A DNA stretch of 37,499 nt from Promethearchaeia archaeon (GTDB taxonomy: Archaea; Asgardarchaeota; Lokiarchaeia; Sigyniarchaeales; SOKP01): contig JAHQWY010000002.1 of assembly GCA_029856445.1 (NCBI GenBank), positions 1 to 37,499 of the forward strand. Direction: 5' to 3'. The notes under the pieces were generated by a model. That model worked only from the letters and a program-made list of their open reading frames with translations, was not told where the DNA came from and did no database searches. Below, one piece after another: positions 4,701 to 29,816 of the stretch; the stretch's first letter is position 1; each line of letters starts with the position of its first letter. The position numbers were made by a program, and so were the translations under genes.

Positions 4701-5030
4701 AATTATCAACTTCCAATTAAAACTTGTAAGAATTATATGAAAGGTTAATAAAAAATCTTTTTAACAAAAAAATCAACTAGTTCTAAATTAAGTTATTCAA
4801 TATTTCAGTATAAAAATCAATTTTAATATTATTTAATCTATTTAATAAAAAAAATCTTTAAAAAATAATACCTCGATAACTCATTTAATTATTAGAACTA
4901 TAACGGATTCTCCTTTTATTGATATAAATAAAATTATAAATTTGTATTTATAGTTATAATATATAAAAGCTTGAACATTTTCGAAAATTTAAAAAATATA
5001 TTAATGTGAAATGCAAAAAGAGGACCTGTG

Positions 5031-6701
5031 ATGGCTGAAGAATATGACTTTCTTTTTAAATCGATTGTTGTAGGAGATGGAGGTGTTGGAAAAACAGCTC
5101 TCACACTTCGATTCTCAAAAGGTTTTTTCACTGAAGATTATAAAATGACGATTGGCGTTGATTTTCATGTAAAAACGATTAATATTGATTCAAATGAGGG
5201 ACCAATTCGTGCGAAGCTCCAAATATGGGATACAGGGGGACAGGAACGTTTTAGTTCAATAAGACCAATGTATTACAGAGGGTCATTAGGAGCACTATTA
5301 ATATTTGATTTAACAAATTCTGCTAGTTTCGAACATCTACCTGGATGGATTGAAGAGGTTAGAGCTAATATAAAAACCGAGATTCCATTCCTGTTAGTTG
5401 GGAATAAAAGTGACTTAGTTGATCAGAGGGCAGTATCATTGAATGAAATCAACACATTTACCCGAGATTTTAATTTGTATTATATGGAAACTTCTGCAAA
5501 AACAGGAGAGGGTGTTGGTGATTGTTTCTATATTCTTGCTTGCTTAATGATAGGATCTGGGGTTCCAGATCAACTCATTTCCAATAATGTAGTATTTAGT
5601 CCTGGATTTATACCGATTACAAGTTCTGAAACCATTTTACCCACCTCAGATCAGGTACAGCCTGATTTTGAATTTTCTGCACCACCCGTTCCAGAACCTA
5701 CGACTATAACTACACAAGAGCCGGTGTCTTCATTTGAACCAGAACCAGAATTCGAATATGAGGCACCACCCGTTCCAGAACCTGCATCTATGAAGGTCTC
5801 TGCTGCCAGCCCTTCTTTTGAGACAGAATTTGAGCCAGAAATACCAATTCCTGAATCCAAGATAGGAATTCAAGATGGTGGTTCGACAGATTTTGAATTT
5901 AAAACACCTGAAGAAATACTAGCTGAAGAAAAAACAGAAGAAGATAAAAGTTCAATATCTTTGCAAAGATCCCCCATAACACCAAAGGAAGAAATTTACA
6001 AACCTAAACCTGTTCCCTTTTCTTCAAAAATTCCCACTCCAGCACCGCCACCAGAAGGATTTCAACCTACTCAAACATCTGTAGAAAAATCTAATATACC
6101 ACCTACTCCTTTTCTTACATCACAAGGAGAACCTCAAACAAAATCTAATTCTTTAATGGATTATATGCCTGAACCAATTTATTCAAAAAAAGACCTGAAA
6201 AAACTAGAAAAACAGAAAAAGAAAGAAGAAAAGGAGAAGAAAATCCAAGAAGAAAAAGAAAAACAACAACAATTAATAGAAGATATGAAAAAAGCAAAAA
6301 AGGAAAAGAAAGAGAAATCTAAAAAAGAAAAGAAAGCGAAGGAAGAAATTCCAGTTACTCGTCCAGTTTCACCTAGTACTTCAATAAATTCACCATCTAG
6401 CGCTCCAACTCTTTTTCAAACCTTAACGCAGAAAGAAGATGAAACTGCTAAAGCTCAATCATCTCATTTCGTTCCTTTCAGCGAAAAAAAAGAATCACAG
6501 GTTCAAGAAACCAGTAGATTAAGAATAATTCCAAATGCAGCTGATATTGAAAGTAAATCAAGTAGTTTTACACCAATCCAACCAACACCGCAAGGTGAAG
6601 CTTCTAAATCAGGAAGTAAAGAGCTAATAATTTGTAAAAATTGTGGTGCTATACTTTCTTCTGATTATGCTTTTTGTAACAAGTGTGGTACAAGTATATA
6701 A
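5031..6701 (+). CDS. Rab-like small GTPase with long low-complexity tail and C-terminal zinc ribbon
   Basis: GTPase motifs are G1 GDGGVGKT, switch I YKMTIGVDF, G3 WDTGGQE, G4 GNKSDL and G5 ETSAK. Rab-family-like motifs are IGVDF, KLQIW, RFSSIR, YYRGS and LIFDLT. The tail has Pro/Glu repeats and a K/E-rich block, and ends in CKNC-x10-CNKC. The ATG at 5031 directly follows the GTG at 5028. Confidence 0.9.
   Translation: MAEEYDFLFKSIVVGDGGVGKTALTLRFSKGFFTEDYKMTIGVDFHVKTINIDSNEGPIRAKLQIWDTGGQERFSSIRPMYYRGSLGALLIFDLTNSASFEHLPGWIEEVRANIKTEIPFLLVGNKSDLVDQRAVSLNEINTFTRDFNLYYMETSAKTGEGVGDCFYILACLMIGSGVPDQLISNNVVFSPGFIPITSSETILPTSDQVQPDFEFSAPPVPEPTTITTQEPVSSFEPEPEFEYEAPPVPEPASMKVSAASPSFETEFEPEIPIPESKIGIQDGGSTDFEFKTPEEILAEEKTEEDKSSISLQRSPITPKEEIYKPKPVPFSSKIPTPAPPPEGFQPTQTSVEKSNIPPTPFLTSQGEPQTKSNSLMDYMPEPIYSKKDLKKLEKQKKKEEKEKKIQEEKEKQQQLIEDMKKAKKEKKEKSKKEKKAKEEIPVTRPVSPSTSINSPSSAPTLFQTLTQKEDETAKAQSSHFVPFSEKKESQVQETSRLRIIPNAADIESKSSSFTPIQPTPQGEASKSGSKELIICKNCGAILSSDYAFCNKCGTSI
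5679..5783 (+). repeat. In-frame direct repeat inside the GTPase tail (21-nt identical copies at 5679-5699 and 5763-5783)
   Basis: gcaccacccgttccagaacct occurs twice, encoding APPVPEP within FEFSAPPVPEP and FEYEAPPVPEP. Confidence 0.9.
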
Positions 6702-6797: not shown

Positions 6798-7577
6798 TTA
6801 TAAGTCTTTTCCGCAAATTGGGCAAGTACTCCACATTTTCTTTATCTTAGAATTGCAATAAGTGCAAACTTTTAACTCAGGATCAATTTTAGTTTGAGGT
6901 TTACCAAAAATAGTCAAATTTTGTGCAGATTGCTTAGGAGCTCTAGTATCTGCGTTGGATTTAATCGGTCTCTGAGGAATAATTTTAGGTGGTTCAATCC
7001 TATTTCTGGTTAAATAACTTTCTGATTTTTGAGGTTCAACTGTAGTTCTAGAGTATTGTTGAGGTTGAATCTGAGATTCCTTGATTTTCTCTGTAAAAGC
7101 TTTTTTTTCACTTTCAATAGGTTTCTCTTCAGGTTCTCCAAGAGATACGCCCACTTTATAATAATAATATTTATTATCATTATTTTCAATTATTCGTTCT
7201 CCATTCTCTAAATAAACTTCAATATAATAAATGATAACAGAACCAGCAGGAATTTCATCAATTTCAGCTATGTAATAATCCATCTTAGCATCCATAGGCA
7301 TTTGATACCATGATTTTCCTTGATCAGCACTAAAAATCAAAATTACATTAAATATAGCTCTAGGAAAATCTTCTTCAGTAATCTTTACTACAATCTTTAT
7401 TGTTTTCTTTTGATCCTCTAGAGCACTTGAAAATGCCTGTGCTTCCATTTCATCCCAAGCTGCACCACATTTTGGGCAATTTGTAAACCAATTAGGATAT
7501 TCAAAACCACATTTAGAACAATTTTTAGTAAAATATCGAGTTGTTTTTATCCCTAATGATTTTTTTTCTTTCCCCAT
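6798..7577 (-). CDS. Double zinc-ribbon protein with central beta-rich domain and Pro/Gln-rich linker
   Basis: N-terminal CSKC-x10-CPKC and C-terminal CTYC-x10-CPIC. The central segment is KIVVKITEEDF...YYIEVYLENGERI. ATG start at 7577. Confidence 0.75.
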   Translation of the reverse strand: MGKEKKSLGIKTTRYFTKNCSKCGFEYPNWFTNCPKCGAAWDEMEAQAFSSALEDQKKTIKIVVKITEEDFPRAIFNVILIFSADQGKSWYQMPMDAKMDYYIAEIDEIPAGSVIIYYIEVYLENGERIIENNDNKYYYYKVGVSLGEPEEKPIESEKKAFTEKIKESQIQPQQYSRTTVEPQKSESYLTRNRIEPPKIIPQRPIKSNADTRAPKQSAQNLTIFGKPQTKIDPELKVCTYCNSKIKKMWSTCPICGKDL

Positions 7578-9638: not shown

Positions 9639-10373
9639 TTGAAAATAGAAAAAAAAGTATTAGTAACATTTTTAATTATTCTCGGAGCATCAATCTCACT
9701 ATCGTTCGTTGGCTCTTATTTCATATATGATGCTTTAACTACAAAAGAAAGTAAAACGTGGACAACAGAATTCAATGTTGAGAATTGTACATTTTCTACT
9801 ACGGGTAATAATACTTATTTTATTCTGGAGATTGGATTTTATTTGATCCTAGAAGGCGTTGATGAGGGGAATAATGTTAAACTCAATATTACCGTCTTAA
9901 ATCAAACAGAGATGGTCGGAACTATTGAAACTAGAGTAGTACAAGAGAATGAGACTGTAAATGGTGAAATAGTTGAAATTTCGCGCAATTTCTTTGCATT
10001 TTGTGAGGAAACTAAATCTATTTTTTACTTTGGAGAAGAGGTTGATATTTATGAGGGAGGGATGATTGTTAGCCATGAAGGTGAATGGAGAGCAGATGAA
10101 GGAGACAATAAACCGGGAATCATAATGCCTGGCCTCGCATTAATTGGTGCTAGATATTATCAAGAGATTGCTCCTGGTGTAGCTATGGACAGAGCAGAAA
10201 TAATAGAAAATAATGCTACAATTACAGTTCCGGTTGGGACGTTCGAAGGATGTTTGATTATAAAGGAAACAAGCCCTGTGGAACCAGGAGCTTTAGAATA
10301 TAAATATCATGCACCCGGTATTGGTTTAATCATAGATGAAATGTTGGAGTTAGTTCAATACGGCTTCCTTTAA
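9639..10373 (+). CDS. Membrane-anchored or secreted hypothetical protein
   Basis: N-terminal hydrophobic anchor VLVTFLIILGASISLSFVGSYF followed by a beta-rich, Asn/Glu-rich body. TTG is the first possible start after an in-frame TGA, and GGATGGGGA lies just upstream. Confidence 0.65.
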   Translation: MKIEKKVLVTFLIILGASISLSFVGSYFIYDALTTKESKTWTTEFNVENCTFSTTGNNTYFILEIGFYLILEGVDEGNNVKLNITVLNQTEMVGTIETRVVQENETVNGEIVEISRNFFAFCEETKSIFYFGEEVDIYEGGMIVSHEGEWRADEGDNKPGIIMPGLALIGARYYQEIAPGVAMDRAEIIENNATITVPVGTFEGCLIIKETSPVEPGALEYKYHAPGIGLIIDEMLELVQYGFL

Positions 10374-28395: not shown

Positions 28396-28499
28396 CGGGC
28401 TATAGGGGAATTGAACCCCTGACCTTCCTTTTCATGAGAGGATCCCTCATAAAGTTCAGGTTAAAAGCCTGTTGCGCTACCTGCCTGCGCCAATAGCCC
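28396..28499 (-). tRNA. tRNA-Lys (anticodon UUU) with an intron of about 30 nt, apparently 3' of the anticodon arm
   Basis: Minus-strand fold: acceptor GGGCTAT/ATAGCCC, D-stem GCGC/GCGC, anticodon arm ACAGG-CTTTTAA-CCTGA (anticodon at 28465-28463), variable loop AGGTC, T-arm AGGGG-TTCAATT-CCCCT, discriminator G. About 30 extra nt (roughly 28426-28455) contain the hairpin ATGAGGG/CCTCTCAT. No encoded CCA. Confidence 0.8.
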
Positions 28500-29722: not shown

Positions 29723-29812
29723 GCCTCTGTGGCTTAGTGGTATAGCATCAGATTCGTATTCAAATTTAGAAGAAATATCTGAAGGTCGGGGGTTCAATTC
29801 CCCCCAGAGGCT
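29723..29812 (+). tRNA. tRNA-Thr (anticodon CGU) with an 18-nt intron at the canonical 37/38 position
   Basis: Acceptor GCCTCTG/CAGAGGC, anticodon stem TCAGA/TCTGA, loop TTCGTA-[intron 29759-29776]-A (anticodon at 29755-29757), variable loop AGGTC, T-arm GGGGG-TTCAATT-CCCCC, discriminator T. Confidence 0.85.
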
Positions 29813-29816
29813 CTAA

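What the first reader, a model, noticed from the sequence alone, without database searches (positions are those of the whole stretch)
5031..6701. Rab-signature small GTPase whose tail ends in a zinc ribbon instead of a prenylation motif
The first ~175 aa form a complete Ras-superfamily G domain (GDGGVGKT, WDTGGQE, GNKSDL, ETSAK). Beyond those generic motifs, it carries close versions of all five Rab-family (RabF1-5) signatures known from eukaryotic Rabs. These are IGVDF (exact), KLQIW (exact), RFSSIR (vs RFRSIT), YYRGS (vs YYRGA) and LIFDLT (vs LVYDIT).

Where a eukaryotic Rab has a short hypervariable tail with C-terminal prenylated cysteines, this protein has about 380 aa of low complexity. 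That tail holds duplicated FE(F/Y)xAPPVPEP units with 21-nt identical DNA copies, a Lys/Glu block encoded by purine-rich DNA at about 6190-6350, and Ser/Thr/Pro stretches. The last 25 residues form a CKNC-x10-CNKC zinc ribbon.

Small GTPases are known eukaryotic signature proteins in Asgard archaea. I do not recognise the combination of strong Rab signatures, a giant disordered linker and a zinc-ribbon anchor as a described architecture. It may represent an alternative, non-lipid way to tether a Rab-like switch.
Basis: partly seen in the sequence, partly recalled or inferred. Interest (0 to 1): 0.7.

Follow-up and report, generated by a model that had tools for sequence, protein, structure and literature searches.

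The report
Rab-like GTPase with zinc-ribbon tail
This gene encodes the Lokiarchaeial version of the textbook "archaeal Rab-like" GTPase, and it carries an overlooked, conserved tail of about 380 residues that ends in a zinc ribbon and always sits beside a zinc-ribbon partner gene, which gives a testable clue to how such switches are positioned without lipid anchors.

Summary
ORF 5031-6701 (+) encodes a 556-aa protein with these parts:
- a complete Ras-superfamily G domain that scores far better against eukaryotic Rabs than against Ras, Rho or Ran
- a tail of about 355 residues, mostly disordered
- a charged helix of about 48 residues within that tail
- a C-terminal Cys4 zinc ribbon

It is not an assembly artefact. 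More than 200 protein clusters and 95 species-representative genomes, nearly all labelled Lokiarchaeia/Promethearchaeota, share the plan.

The tail is not mere low complexity. About ten short sequence islands are conserved, and dN/dS is below 1 in every region. The G domain is almost invariant (dN/dS about 0.03).

A gene for a β-sandwich protein with zinc ribbons is adjacent in 86 of 87 loci and two genes away in the other. The adjacency survives a change of side and strand in cultured Lokiarchaeum ossiferum.

The novelty is tempered. The GC14_75 orthologue (KKK40223) is the published exemplar archaeal "Rab-like" protein, from a paper that says such proteins lack C-terminal extensions. An MK-D1 protein is labelled "GXzn" in one supplementary figure.

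My best reading is a self-tethered GTP switch and scaffold that docks through its zinc ribbon. A direct role as a membrane anchor is unsupported but not excluded.

The parts
5031..6701 (+). Complete coding sequence of the Rab-like GTPase with a zinc-ribbon tail (556 aa plus stop)
   Evidence: ORF. Full-length orthologues at 55-87% identity over 100% coverage. The start is supported by the orthologue N-termini and by GAGG at 5020-5023.
5031..5555 (+). G domain (aa 1-175) with G1-G5 motifs, the catalytic Gln71 and RabF-type motifs
   Evidence: Pfam Ras E 1.1e-52. The best PDB hits are all Rabs, at E 1e-44 to 1e-39. Mean column identity is 0.95 among 88 orthologues. dN/dS is 0.02-0.03.
5556..5630 (+). 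Conserved segment after the G domain (aa 176-200, GSGVPDQLIS..VF.PG.IP)
   Evidence: Mean column identity 0.76. S176, P179, L182, P191 and G192 are invariant in 88 sequences.
5631..6185 (+). Acidic, proline-rich disordered region 1 (aa 201-385, net charge -23 over aa 176-385) carrying conserved short motifs
   Evidence: AF2 pLDDT is mostly below 50. Islands are listed. dN/dS is 0.23-0.35.
5679..5699 (+). APPVPEP motif, copy 1, preceded by [DE][FY][DE][FY]
   Evidence: At least 80% conserved across 88 orthologues. Lies in the 47-nt DNA repeat. Divergent members carry 2-4 copies.
5733..5783 (+). FEPEPEFEYEAPPVPEP (acidic-aromatic stretch plus APPVPEP copy 2)
5832..5846 (+). EPEIP island (part of FEPEFEPEIPIPE)
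   Evidence: consensus.
5889..5921 (+). DFEFKTPEEIL island (aa 287-297), with a short predicted helix at 293-298
   Evidence: Also present in divergent members P0135, P0140, P0144 and P0173.
5997..6062 (+). YKPKxxPF(S/T)SxxPxPxPxPxxF island (aa 323-344)
   Evidence: Y323, P325, P329, F330, P339, P341 and F344 are invariant. Kept in divergent members.
6186..6329 (+). Lys/Glu-rich charged helix (aa 386-433), probably a single stable helix that acts as a spacer
   Evidence: AF2 models a continuous helix at 386-433 with pLDDT 84-88. Only 6 of 48 residues are hydrophobic and none is aromatic. dN/dS is 0.03-0.07. The span that contains it varies from 66 to 175 residues among orthologues.
6330..6617 (+). 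Disordered region 2 (aa 434-529) with the PSLFQTL (6405-6425), FVPF (6468-6479) and S+LRIIPN (6513-6536) islands
   Evidence: pLDDT below 50. Islands. dN/dS is 0.22-0.67.
6618..6698 (+). C-terminal Cys4 zinc ribbon (aa 530-556; C535, C538, C549, C552)
   Evidence: Pfam Zn_Ribbon_1. Present in 117 of 120 homologues, and the 3 exceptions are truncated or carry a deletion. AF2 pLDDT is about 83. The four Cys, G539, S543, D545, N550, K551 and G553 are invariant.
6798..7577 (-). Conserved partner gene (259 aa): N-terminal zinc ribbon, Ig-like β-sandwich, short helix, disordered linker, C-terminal zinc ribbon
   Evidence: Immediately adjacent and convergent in 83 of 83 loci and next to divergent members. 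Adjacent upstream on the same strand in L. ossiferum. AF2 model; Foldseek.

Best explanation
The gene encodes a working small-GTPase switch of the Asgard Rab-like (RasL) kind. The switch is built into a long, self-tethering scaffold.

The proposed mechanism has four parts:
- The nearly invariant G domain cycles between GTP and GDP states and engages effectors through Rab-type switch and RabF surfaces.
- The tail of about 355 residues is intrinsically disordered. It carries about ten conserved short linear motifs, mostly acidic-aromatic or proline-rich, which act as docking sites for several partners.
- A charged helix of about 48 residues acts as a stiff spacer whose length varies between species.
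- The C-terminal Cys4 zinc ribbon is a protein-docking module. It fixes the whole molecule to a defined partner or structure, most plausibly together with the β-sandwich/zinc-ribbon protein encoded next door.

The nucleotide state of the G domain would then gate what is recruited within the radius set by the tail, in a membrane-remodelling or cytoskeletal process.

Shown here: the architecture, its conservation, purifying selection, the gene pairing and the taxonomic spread. Inferred: zinc binding, docking, the identity of the partner and the cellular process.
For: - **GTPase competence.** All G1-G5 motifs and the catalytic Gln71 are present, with Pfam Ras at E 1e-52.
- **Rab-type surface.** The 60 best PDB hits listed are all Rabs, including the archaeal Thor-Rab 7EZB. 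BLASTP gives 156 and 155 bits for Rab30 and Rab8A, against 107, 95 and 88 for Ran, HRas and RhoA and 50-82 for neighbouring Loki paralogues (references verified).
- **Extreme constraint on the switch.** The G domain is 83-98% identical across 81 loci, as conserved as NrdD at 76-96%, and dN/dS is 0.02-0.03.
- **A functional tail.** Conserved islands are found in 88 orthologues and persist in members whose tails are only 33-38% identical. dN/dS is below 1 in every tail region.
- **Predicted order.** AF2 predicts order only for the helix at 386-433 and the ribbon at 530-556.
- **Ribbon conservation.** It is present in 117 of 120 close homologues and in 88 of 104 proteins from a search with a divergent member.
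- **Partner linkage.** The partner is adjacent in 83 of 83 loci and next to P0162 and P0173. It is two genes away for P0216. In L. ossiferum it moved to the upstream side and the same strand but is still adjacent, with a 108-bp gap.
- **Experimental precedents for ribbon-plus-linker docking in archaea.** The C-terminal C4 ribbon of CdpC binds FtsZ1. ArcoC, a zinc ribbon with a long disordered region, binds the Ras-superfamily GTPase ArcoA and FtsZ1. ArvC is a zinc-ribbon partner of the vesiculating GTPase ArvA.
Against: - No interaction has been measured or modelled. I had no multimer prediction.
- The full-length AF2 model was poor (mean pLDDT 51), so it says nothing about contacts between tail and G domain.
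- Much of the surrounding neighbourhood (MfnA-like, MazG, NrdD, aminotransferase) is also syntenic in these related genomes. Adjacency in the main clade is therefore weak evidence on its own. The L. ossiferum rearrangement is a single case.
- In the L. ossiferum/P0216 branch the tail islands are largely replaced, so the motif set is not universal to the architecture.
- The Pfam score for the ribbon is marginal (25.4 against 25).
- The partner's central domain is a generic Ig/FN3/CBM-like sandwich and gives no functional lead.
- The haloarchaeal precedents are analogies, not homologues. No DUF2072/PF09845 or MMR_HSR1 hit was found.
Confidence: 0.5

Rival explanations
1. The C-terminal zinc ribbon, perhaps helped by the Lys-rich helix, binds the membrane directly and replaces the prenyl anchor of eukaryotic Rabs. 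The long tail then plays the part of a giant hypervariable domain.
For: The ribbon sits at the extreme C-terminus, where Rabs carry their lipidated cysteines. The K/E block has net charge +9. Asgard genomes lack REP and RabGGTase, and no membrane signal has been found for their Rab-likes. In CdpC a zinc-ribbon domain is required for membrane association.
Against: The tail has no transmembrane or membrane-seeking amphipathic segment. The highest hydrophobic moment is 0.39, at mean hydrophobicity -0.9, and the highest 18-residue hydrophobicity is 0.51, in a proline-containing stretch. The K/E block is mixed-charge and not polybasic, and it is absent or replaced in some members (P0173, P0162). 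In CdpC it is an amphipathic helix that binds the membrane, not the ribbon itself. As far as I know, ribbons of the PF13240 type have no demonstrated lipid binding.
Confidence: 0.15
2. The tail acts within the same molecule. The zinc ribbon or some tail motifs fold back onto the G domain and act as a built-in inhibitor or regulator, like a GDI or GAP. The protein would then be an autoregulated switch and not a tethered one.
For: The conserved segment just after the G domain and several tail islands are as constrained as folded parts. Zinc-finger modules do occur in GTPase regulators, as discussed for ArfGAPs and ArvC.
Against: AF2 gave no confident packing of tail elements against the G domain, although the model was poor. 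A linker of about 350 residues, with a rigid helix of variable length, is longer than intramolecular regulation needs. The ribbon has no conserved Arg or Gln that could serve as a catalytic finger.
Confidence: 0.12
3. The zinc ribbon binds nucleic acid and tethers the GTPase to RNA, ribosomes or chromatin.
For: Zinc ribbons are common in nucleic-acid-binding proteins (general knowledge). The gene lies in a housekeeping and information-processing region with NAC, a PUA protein, PAN, RpoB, PolD and Cbf5.
Against: The G domain is Rab-like and not of the translation-factor class. The tail before the K/E helix (aa 176-385) is strongly acidic, with net charge -23. The profile of the C-terminal module matches no solved nucleic-acid-binding ribbon. 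The neighbouring genes do not form an operon with it.
Confidence: 0.07
4. The long ORF is an assembly fusion, a frameshift artefact or a decaying gene.
For: None was found. The only prompts are the biased composition and the internal DNA repeat.
Against: The same full-length architecture occurs in more than 200 independent protein clusters and in 95 loci from species-representative genomes. These include the complete chromosomes CP070831, CP070805 and CP163304. dN/dS is below 1 throughout.
Confidence: 0.01

Closest known systems
Lokiarchaeum GC14_75 KKK40223, the exemplar archaeal "Rab-like GTPase" of Surkont & Pereira-Leal 2016 (PMC4915359)
   Same: It is the orthologue. P0063 carries the accession KKK40223.1, is 61-66% identical over the full length and sits in the same gene neighbourhood. 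It has all five RabF-type motifs and the same best templates, Rab8, Rab30 and Ypt1.
   Different: Nothing differs biologically. What differs is the description. The paper treats only the G domain and states that archaeal Rab-likes lack an extended C-terminal region and any membrane-association signal. Yet this protein is 587 aa long, with the conserved tail and the zinc ribbon.
Eukaryotic Rab GTPases (closest here: Rab30, Rab8A, Rab43, Rab2, Rab1/Ypt1)
   Same: The G-domain sequence is 42-44% identical. RabF1 and RabF2 are exact and RabF3-5 are near matches. The catalytic Gln is present. A long flexible C-terminal region ends in cysteines.
   Different: There is no CC, CXC or CAAX prenylation motif; the cysteines form a CxxC-x10-CxxC zinc ribbon. 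The tail is about 380 aa, against about 30-40 aa in Rabs by my own knowledge. REP and GGTase are reported absent from Asgard archaea. Published trees do not place Asgard RasL sequences as sister to Rabs.
Thorarchaeota Rab (PDB 7EZB) and the MK-D1 small GTPases of Tran et al. 2024 (PMC10933270), including WP_147661765.1, labelled "GXzn"
   Same: They are Asgard Rab-like G domains. Thor-Rab scores 146 bits against this one. The MK-D1 "GXzn" protein is listed directly after Ypt1 and Rab1B, and its G domain resembles the divergent P0216/L. ossiferum branch of this family.
   Different: Thor-Rab is a bare G domain with a truncated C-terminus. "GXzn" is only a label in a supplementary figure. The main text says these proteins lack the C-terminal extension and that no MK-D1 GTPase has terminal cysteines. 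I could not obtain the MK-D1 tail sequence to confirm membership.
Haloferax volcanii ArcoABC, also called ArvABC or OapABC (PMC10927574; bioRxiv 10.64898/2026.07.23.738820)
   Same: A Ras-superfamily GTPase works with a protein made of a zinc ribbon plus a long disordered region. That protein binds both the GTPase and a cytoskeletal target. In functional terms the parts list is the same.
   Different: Those are separate polypeptides in an operon. The GTPase is Arf/SRβ-like with an N-terminal amphipathic helix and matches Pfam PF01926. The ribbon is N-terminal (DUF2072/PF09845). A SepF-like third component is needed. None of these features is found here, so this is an analogy and not homology.
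Haloferax volcanii CdpC (bioRxiv 10.64898/2026.07.16.738847)
   Same: Its plan is a zinc ribbon, a long disordered linker and a C4 zinc ribbon, and the C-terminal ribbon is a high-affinity protein-docking module. Distant multi-ribbon relatives are reported in Lokiarchaeia. The partner gene at 6798-7577 has the same ribbon-linker-ribbon outline.
   Different: CdpC has no GTPase and no β-sandwich. Its N-terminal ribbon is of the C3H type and has an amphipathic helix. Homology to either window protein was not tested because no CdpC sequence was available.

Membership tests
Ras superfamily of small GTPases | G1-G5 nucleotide-binding motifs: GxxxxGK[ST], the switch I Thr, DxxGQ, NKxD and SAK | tested here: met
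   GDGGVGKT 15-22, T40, DTGGQ 67-71, NKSD 125-128 and SAK 155-157 in the translation. All are invariant or nearly invariant in the orthologues.
Ras superfamily of small GTPases | A profile match above the curated threshold | tested here: met
   Pfam PF00071 scores 178.3 bits against a cut-off of 21.6. NCBIfam TIGR00231 scores 88 bits against 42.5.
Rab family (eukaryotic) | The RabF1-F5 family motifs | tested here: met
   IGVDF and KLQIW are present. RFSSIR, YYRGS and LIFDLT sit at the RabF3-5 positions. The reference motif strings are from the finding and from my own knowledge; the paper text available to me does not print them. The orthologue KKK40223 was scored by the Rabifier as having all five.
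Rab family (eukaryotic) | Higher similarity to Rabs than to Ras, Rho, Ran or Arf | tested here: met
   The top 60 PDB hits are all Rabs. Scores are 155-156 bits for Rabs against 88-107 bits for Ran, HRas and RhoA. The Pfam Arf model gives only 30.7 bits.
Rab family (eukaryotic) | A C-terminal prenylatable cysteine motif (CC, CXC, CCXX or CAAX) | tested here: not met
   The protein ends in CNKCGTSI. The last Cys is 5 residues from the end and belongs to a CxxC knuckle of a Cys4 ribbon.
Rab family (eukaryotic) | Phylogenetic placement inside, or sister to, the eukaryotic Rab clade | not tested
   No tree was built, because no reference set or tree software was available. Published analyses are unresolved or do not recover Asgard sequences as sister to Rabs.
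Rab family (eukaryotic) | Dependence on REP/GDI and RabGGTase | not testable with these tools
   Tran et al. report no REP or RabGGTase homologues in Asgard archaea.
Asgard Rab-like / RasL GTPases | Orthology to a recognised member | tested here: met
   P0063, which is KKK40223.1, is 61-66% identical over the full length and shares synteny.
Zn_Ribbon_1 (PF13240) zinc ribbon | Two CxxC knuckles about 10 residues apart and a profile match | tested here: met
   The spacing is C-x2-C-x10-C-x2-C. The score is 25.4 bits against a cut-off of 25, which is marginal. The cysteines are invariant. AF2 models a small β-hairpin module at pLDDT about 83. Zinc binding itself was not tested.
ArvA/ArcoA archaeal vesiculating/oscillator GTPases | An N-terminal amphipathic helix, Arf/SRβ-like affinity (PF01926/PF00025), and an operon with a SepF-like protein and a DUF2072 zinc-ribbon protein | tested here: not met
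   The N-terminus is the Rab-type MAEEYDFLFK. Ras is the best Pfam match, and there is no PF01926 hit. The neighbours are an aminotransferase and the β-sandwich/ribbon protein, with no SepF-like or DUF2072 gene.
CdpC-like double zinc-ribbon proteins (for the partner gene 6798-7577) | N- and C-terminal zinc ribbons joined by a long disordered linker, plus sequence homology to HVO_0399 | tested here: inconclusive
   The outline is met, with ribbons at 12-40 and 235-259 and a disordered 179-221. However, there is an extra β-sandwich at 57-141. No CdpC sequence was available for a homology test.

The most novel reading that the evidence does not exclude
Lokiarchaeia solved the problem of positioning a Rab-like switch without lipids. 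The most Rab-like GTPase of the lineage is permanently leashed, through a motif-studded disordered tail and a rigid spacer, to a zinc-ribbon docking module. That module plugs into a dedicated β-sandwich/zinc-ribbon receptor protein encoded next door. Together they would form a two-gene "GTPase plus tether/receptor" module that specifies a site on the membrane or cytoskeleton. This would be a pre-prenylation counterpart of the Rab hypervariable domain and its membrane receptors, and it could be tested directly in cultured L. ossiferum and MK-D1.
Probability: 0.2. Interest if true: 0.85.

Novelty: new variant of a known kind. Interest (0 to 1): 0.62.

Why it matters
Asgard archaea encode dozens of Rab-like GTPases. 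Nobody knows how these are localised or what they control. The literature states that they lack the C-terminal extension and any membrane-association signal.

This result shows that the exemplar Rab-like protein of Lokiarchaeia does have a large, conserved C-terminal apparatus: short linear motifs, a charged spacer helix and a zinc ribbon. It also has a faithfully co-located partner gene.

That turns a vague question, how a Rab-like switch is targeted without prenylation, into concrete experiments. The experiments would use one protein pair that is present in the cultured strain L. ossiferum, and probably in MK-D1. The near-invariance of the G domain suggests a central, hub-like cellular role.

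Tried and rejected
- **Full-length AF2 model.** The alignment held 88 orthologues, and the G domain came out poorly, probably because the orthologue-only alignment lacks diversity there (it is nearly invariant). Mean pLDDT was 51. The model was used only for the helix, the ribbon and the disorder call, and it gives no information on tail-to-G-domain contacts.
- **Tail alignment built from fragmentary representatives (A3).** It had no conserved stretch usable for the genome scan (error). I replaced it with a 100-residue C-terminal alignment (A4).
- **Profile of the C-terminal module against the PDB.** There were only chance-level hits, at E above 1.
- **Foldseek search with the partner model.** It matched only generic Ig/FN3/CBM21/CBM56 β-sandwiches (best E 4e-4), with no functional lead. 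No adaptin-ear or Mss4 match appeared among the 50 matches listed.
- **Weak Pfam hits.** Clathrin_lg_ch scored 19 bits against a cut-off of 22, over the K/E block. ATP_bind_1 scored 24.8 against 27. I reject the Clathrin_lg_ch hit as composition-driven and the ATP_bind_1 hit as a sub-threshold match within the GTPase fold.
- **NZF/RanBP2-type zinc finger.** It has the same C-x2-C-x10-C-x2-C spacing, which made me consider it. I rejected it from my own knowledge of that family's Trp and Asn signature residues, which are absent here. This was not tested with a tool.
- **Tail motifs compared by eye with known ligands.** I looked at EVH1 (FPPPP), SH3 (PxxP), UEV (PTAP), γ-ear (ψG[PDE]ψ) and LIR consensus motifs. 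None fits exactly, and I make no claim from them.
- **MK-D1 membership.** I could not confirm that WP_147661765.1 has the same tail. Only OCR'd G-domain segments from a supplementary alignment were available.
- **Phylogenetic tree.** None was built. The pairwise scores are similarity, not phylogeny.
Full report
**1. What is there**

The ORF listing finds a single long ORF at 5028..6701 on the + strand. The ATG at 5031 is the start. All orthologues begin M-[A/V/S]-EEYD, and a GAGG lies 7 nt upstream. The stop is followed by oligo-T runs. The product is 556 aa.

- G motifs: GDGGVGKT 15-22, WDTGGQE 66-72, GNKSDL 124-129, ETSAK 153-157.
- RabF-type motifs: IGVDF 41-45, KLQIW 62-66, RFSSIR 73-78, YYRGS 81-85, LIFDLT 90-95.
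- Ribbon: CKNC-x10-CNKC at 535-552.

Pfam gives Ras at 10-170 (E 1.1e-52) and Zn_Ribbon_1 at 535-555, at 25.4 bits and just above the cut-off of 25. NCBIfam gives small_GTP.

The duplicated FE(F/Y)xAPPVPEP units are encoded by 47-nt copies at 5661-5707 and 5745-5791, with an identical 21-nt core. The Lys/Glu block is strongly purine-rich. The window has about 30% G+C. It carries archaeal housekeeping genes: RpoB, PolD DP2 and DP1, PAN, Cbf5 and NrdD.

**2. The gene is real and the architecture recurs**

A full-length search returned 560 hits. The best 120 are all about 500-615 aa, with 55-87% identity over 100% of the query. They are named "GTP-binding protein" or "Rab-11A" from Promethearchaeota/Lokiarchaeota MAGs.

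The C-terminal Cys4 motif is present in 117 of the 120. The three exceptions are truncated or carry a deletion.

A scan of one genome per GTDB species, using a C-terminal profile, confirmed 95 loci. Of the 80 listed, nearly all are labelled Promethearchaeota or Promethearchaeia. A few carry Thor, Odin, Hod, Hermod or Heimdall labels, yet they have the same synteny and G domains 88-95% identical. I suspect these are loose submitter labels, but I could not verify that.

A tail-only search of 1.84 billion cluster representatives found only 33 proteins at E below 1e-10. Below that level there are only generic zinc-ribbon matches. The tail is therefore lineage-specific.

More distant members keep the plan of a Rab-like G domain, a long tail and a terminal ribbon. 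These are P0135, P0140, P0144, P0169, P0173, P0162 and P0216, with tails 30-41% identical. A search seeded with P0216 gave 864 hits. Of the 104 new proteins, 88 have a Rab-like N-terminus plus a C-terminal Cys4 and are 359-683 aa long. One of them, P0385, comes from the cultured Candidatus Lokiarchaeum ossiferum. Assembly fusion or frameshift is excluded.

**3. The G domain**

Against the PDB, the 60 best hits listed are all Rabs (Rab30, Rab8A, Rab43, Rab2, Ypt31, Rab1/Ypt1 and others, E 1e-44 to 1e-39). They include the solved Thorarchaeota Rab, 7EZB.

BLASTP then gave the following:

| Reference | Identity | Bits |
|---|---|---|
| Rab30 | 44% | 156 |
| Rab8A | 42% | 155 |
| Ran | 37% | 107 |
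| HRas | 37% | 95 |
| RhoA | 34% | 88 |
| Other Lokiarchaeial small GTPases from fetched loci | 29-33% | 50-82 |

The "Rab signature" is therefore real at the level of similarity.

It is also already known. P0063, the GC14_75 orthologue (61-66% identical over the full length, same neighbourhood), carries the accession KKK40223.1. [quoted passage not shown] They modelled it on Rab8, Rab26, Rab30 and Ypt1.

Phylogenetic membership in the Rab family is a separate matter. Their trees were an unresolved polytomy. Vargová et al. state that no Asgard sequences are specifically sister to eukaryotic Rabs. I built no tree. "Rab-like (RasL)" is the defensible name.

The G domain is remarkably constrained. 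It is 83-98% identical across 81 loci, as conserved as the NrdD gene nearby (76-96%). Its mean column identity is 0.95, and dN/dS is 0.02-0.03.

**4. The tail is structured information, not filler**

The composition is biased (S, E, P and K make up 50%). AF2 gives pLDDT below 50 for most of it. Even so, alignments of 23 and 88 orthologues reveal discrete islands:
- GSGVPDQLIS..VF.PG.IP, just after the G domain
- two to four copies of [DE][FY][DE][FY]xAPPVPEP
- FEPEFEPEIPIPE
- DFEFKTPEEIL
- YKPKxxPF(S/T)SxxPxPxPxPxxF
- SLxDYMPE
- PSLFQTLTQK
- FVPF
- S+LRIIPN
- the ribbon, C(K)xCGAxLSSDYxFCNKCGxxL

Most of these persist in members whose tails are only 30-41% identical.

dN/dS is below 1 in all regions:

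| Region | dN/dS |
|---|---|
| G domain | 0.02-0.03 |
| K/E helix | 0.03-0.07 |
| Zinc ribbon | 0.08-0.28 |
| Disordered region 1 | 0.23-0.35 |
| Disordered region 2 | 0.22-0.67 |

AF2 predicts order in only two tail elements. One is a continuous helix at 386-433 (pLDDT 84-88). The other is the ribbon (pLDDT about 83). The helix has 6 hydrophobic residues out of 48 and no aromatics. This fits a charged single α-helix better than a coiled coil, which is my inference. The span that contains it ranges from 66 to 175 residues among orthologues, through repeat expansion. That is what one expects of a spacer.

In the L. ossiferum/P0216 branch the acidic islands are largely replaced by S/K/P/N-rich sequence, but the terminal ribbon remains.

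**5. The neighbour**

A 259-aa gene lies 96 bp downstream and convergent, at 6798-7577 (-). Its product has these parts:
- an N-terminal Cys4 ribbon
- a β-sandwich at 57-141 (pLDDT 70-82)
- a short helix
- a disordered linker
- a C-terminal Cys4 ribbon

Foldseek matches only generic Ig/FN3/CBM sandwiches. The family (366 hits) is annotated only as "hypothetical" and comes from the same lineage.

The gene is immediately adjacent and convergent in 83 of 83 loci. Much of that neighbourhood is syntenic too: the aminotransferase is present in 73 loci, the MfnA-like gene in 74, MazG in 76 and NrdD in 67. Adjacency alone is therefore weak evidence. The pair does persist where MfnA is lost or where insertions occur. 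It also sits next to the divergent members P0162 and P0173, and it is two genes away for P0216.

In L. ossiferum a homologue lies immediately upstream on the same strand, 108 bp away. It has the β-sandwich (30% identity, E 1e-10) and a C-terminal ribbon but no N-terminal ribbon. Adjacency that survives a change of side and strand is the best evidence here for a functional link.

**6. Mechanism**

The best-supported reading is a self-tethered switch and scaffold. A Rab-type G domain is leashed by a motif-rich disordered tail and a rigid spacer to a zinc-ribbon docking module, and it works with the neighbouring ribbon protein.

Direct archaeal precedents exist for a zinc ribbon plus a long disordered linker acting as a protein-docking device around GTPases:
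- The C-terminal C4 ribbon of CdpC binds FtsZ1, and its N-terminal domain binds membrane through an amphipathic helix.
- ArcoC, a ribbon with a long disordered region, binds the Ras-superfamily GTPase ArcoA and FtsZ1.
- ArvC is the zinc-ribbon partner of the vesiculating GTPase ArvA.

These are analogies. The window protein has none of the defining features of ArvA/ArcoA.

There is no transmembrane or membrane-seeking amphipathic segment. The K/E block is mixed-charge, and some members lack it.

Nucleic-acid tethering and intramolecular autoregulation remain minor rivals.

**7. Novelty**

The Rab-like G domain is published. The architecture has been noticed once, as the label "GXzn" on MK-D1 WP_147661765.1 in a supplementary figure.

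Both papers nonetheless state that Asgard Rab-likes lack a C-terminal extension or membrane signal. Other literature searches found no description of this architecture.

What appears new is the following:
- recognition that the exemplar Rab-like protein carries a conserved tail of about 380 aa
- the motif map of that tail
- the selection profile
- the taxonomic spread
- the conserved partner gene

I rate it a new variant of a known kind. Interest is moderate to high, because it makes the question of how Asgard Rab-likes are targeted directly testable in cultured strains.

Noticed in passing
window 6798-7577 (-): An uncharacterised 259-aa protein with Cys4 zinc ribbons at both ends, a central Ig-like β-sandwich and a disordered linker. 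It is always encoded beside the GTPase, and its family is annotated only as "hypothetical".
   Followed up: yes
window 9639-10373 (+): A 244-aa ORF between the MazG-like gene and NrdD, with no Pfam match. tblastn finds it in only 1 of 83 related loci. It looks like a lineage-specific insertion in an otherwise syntenic block.
   Followed up: no
window 28396-28499 (-) and 29723-29813 (+): Rfam calls two tRNAs of 104 and 90 nt, but ARAGORN reports only the second (tRNA-Thr, 91 nt). Both are longer than a standard tRNA, so they may contain introns.
   Followed up: no
orthologues P0067, P0106, P0124, P0127 and P0063 (alignment columns 420-505 of A1): The Lys/Glu helix is expanded by tandem repeats of about 30 residues of the EEKEKQEKLIEDMKKEKQKKKDEKEKKLQ type. 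The span from SKK to LFQ ranges from 66 to 175 residues.
   Followed up: partly
L084 3073-4035 (+): Directly upstream of the divergent family member P0216 lies a 320-aa protein with ABC_transp_aux / IFT52_GIFT domain hits. The partner-like ribbon protein sits one gene further upstream.
   Followed up: no
L087 7774-8598 (-), Ca. Lokiarchaeum ossiferum CP163304.1: The convergent downstream neighbour of the L. ossiferum GTPase is a different 274-aa protein. It has an N-terminal CxxC motif and a long Ala/Glu-rich region, and it is not a homologue of the window's partner.
   Followed up: partly
L002 5231-5740, L086 973-1533, L085 3183-4139: In several related genomes, additional small Ras-family GTPase genes (169-318 aa) lie a few kb upstream of the family member. 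They are only 29-33% identical to it. The window itself has none.
   Followed up: partly
loci L007, L022, L027, L028, L031, L034, L037, L041, L045, L055, L059 and L065: These contigs are labelled Hodarchaeota, Heimdallarchaeota, Odinarchaeota, Thorarchaeota or Hermodarchaeota. They carry the same gene order and G domains 88-95% identical to the Lokiarchaeial ones. The submitter taxonomy labels may be unreliable.
   Followed up: no
Supplementary Fig. 5 of PMC10933270: A second MK-D1 small GTPase, WP_147662073.1, is labelled "Gzn". Fusions of a G domain with a zinc module may therefore occur in more than one Lokiarchaeial GTPase family.
   Followed up: no
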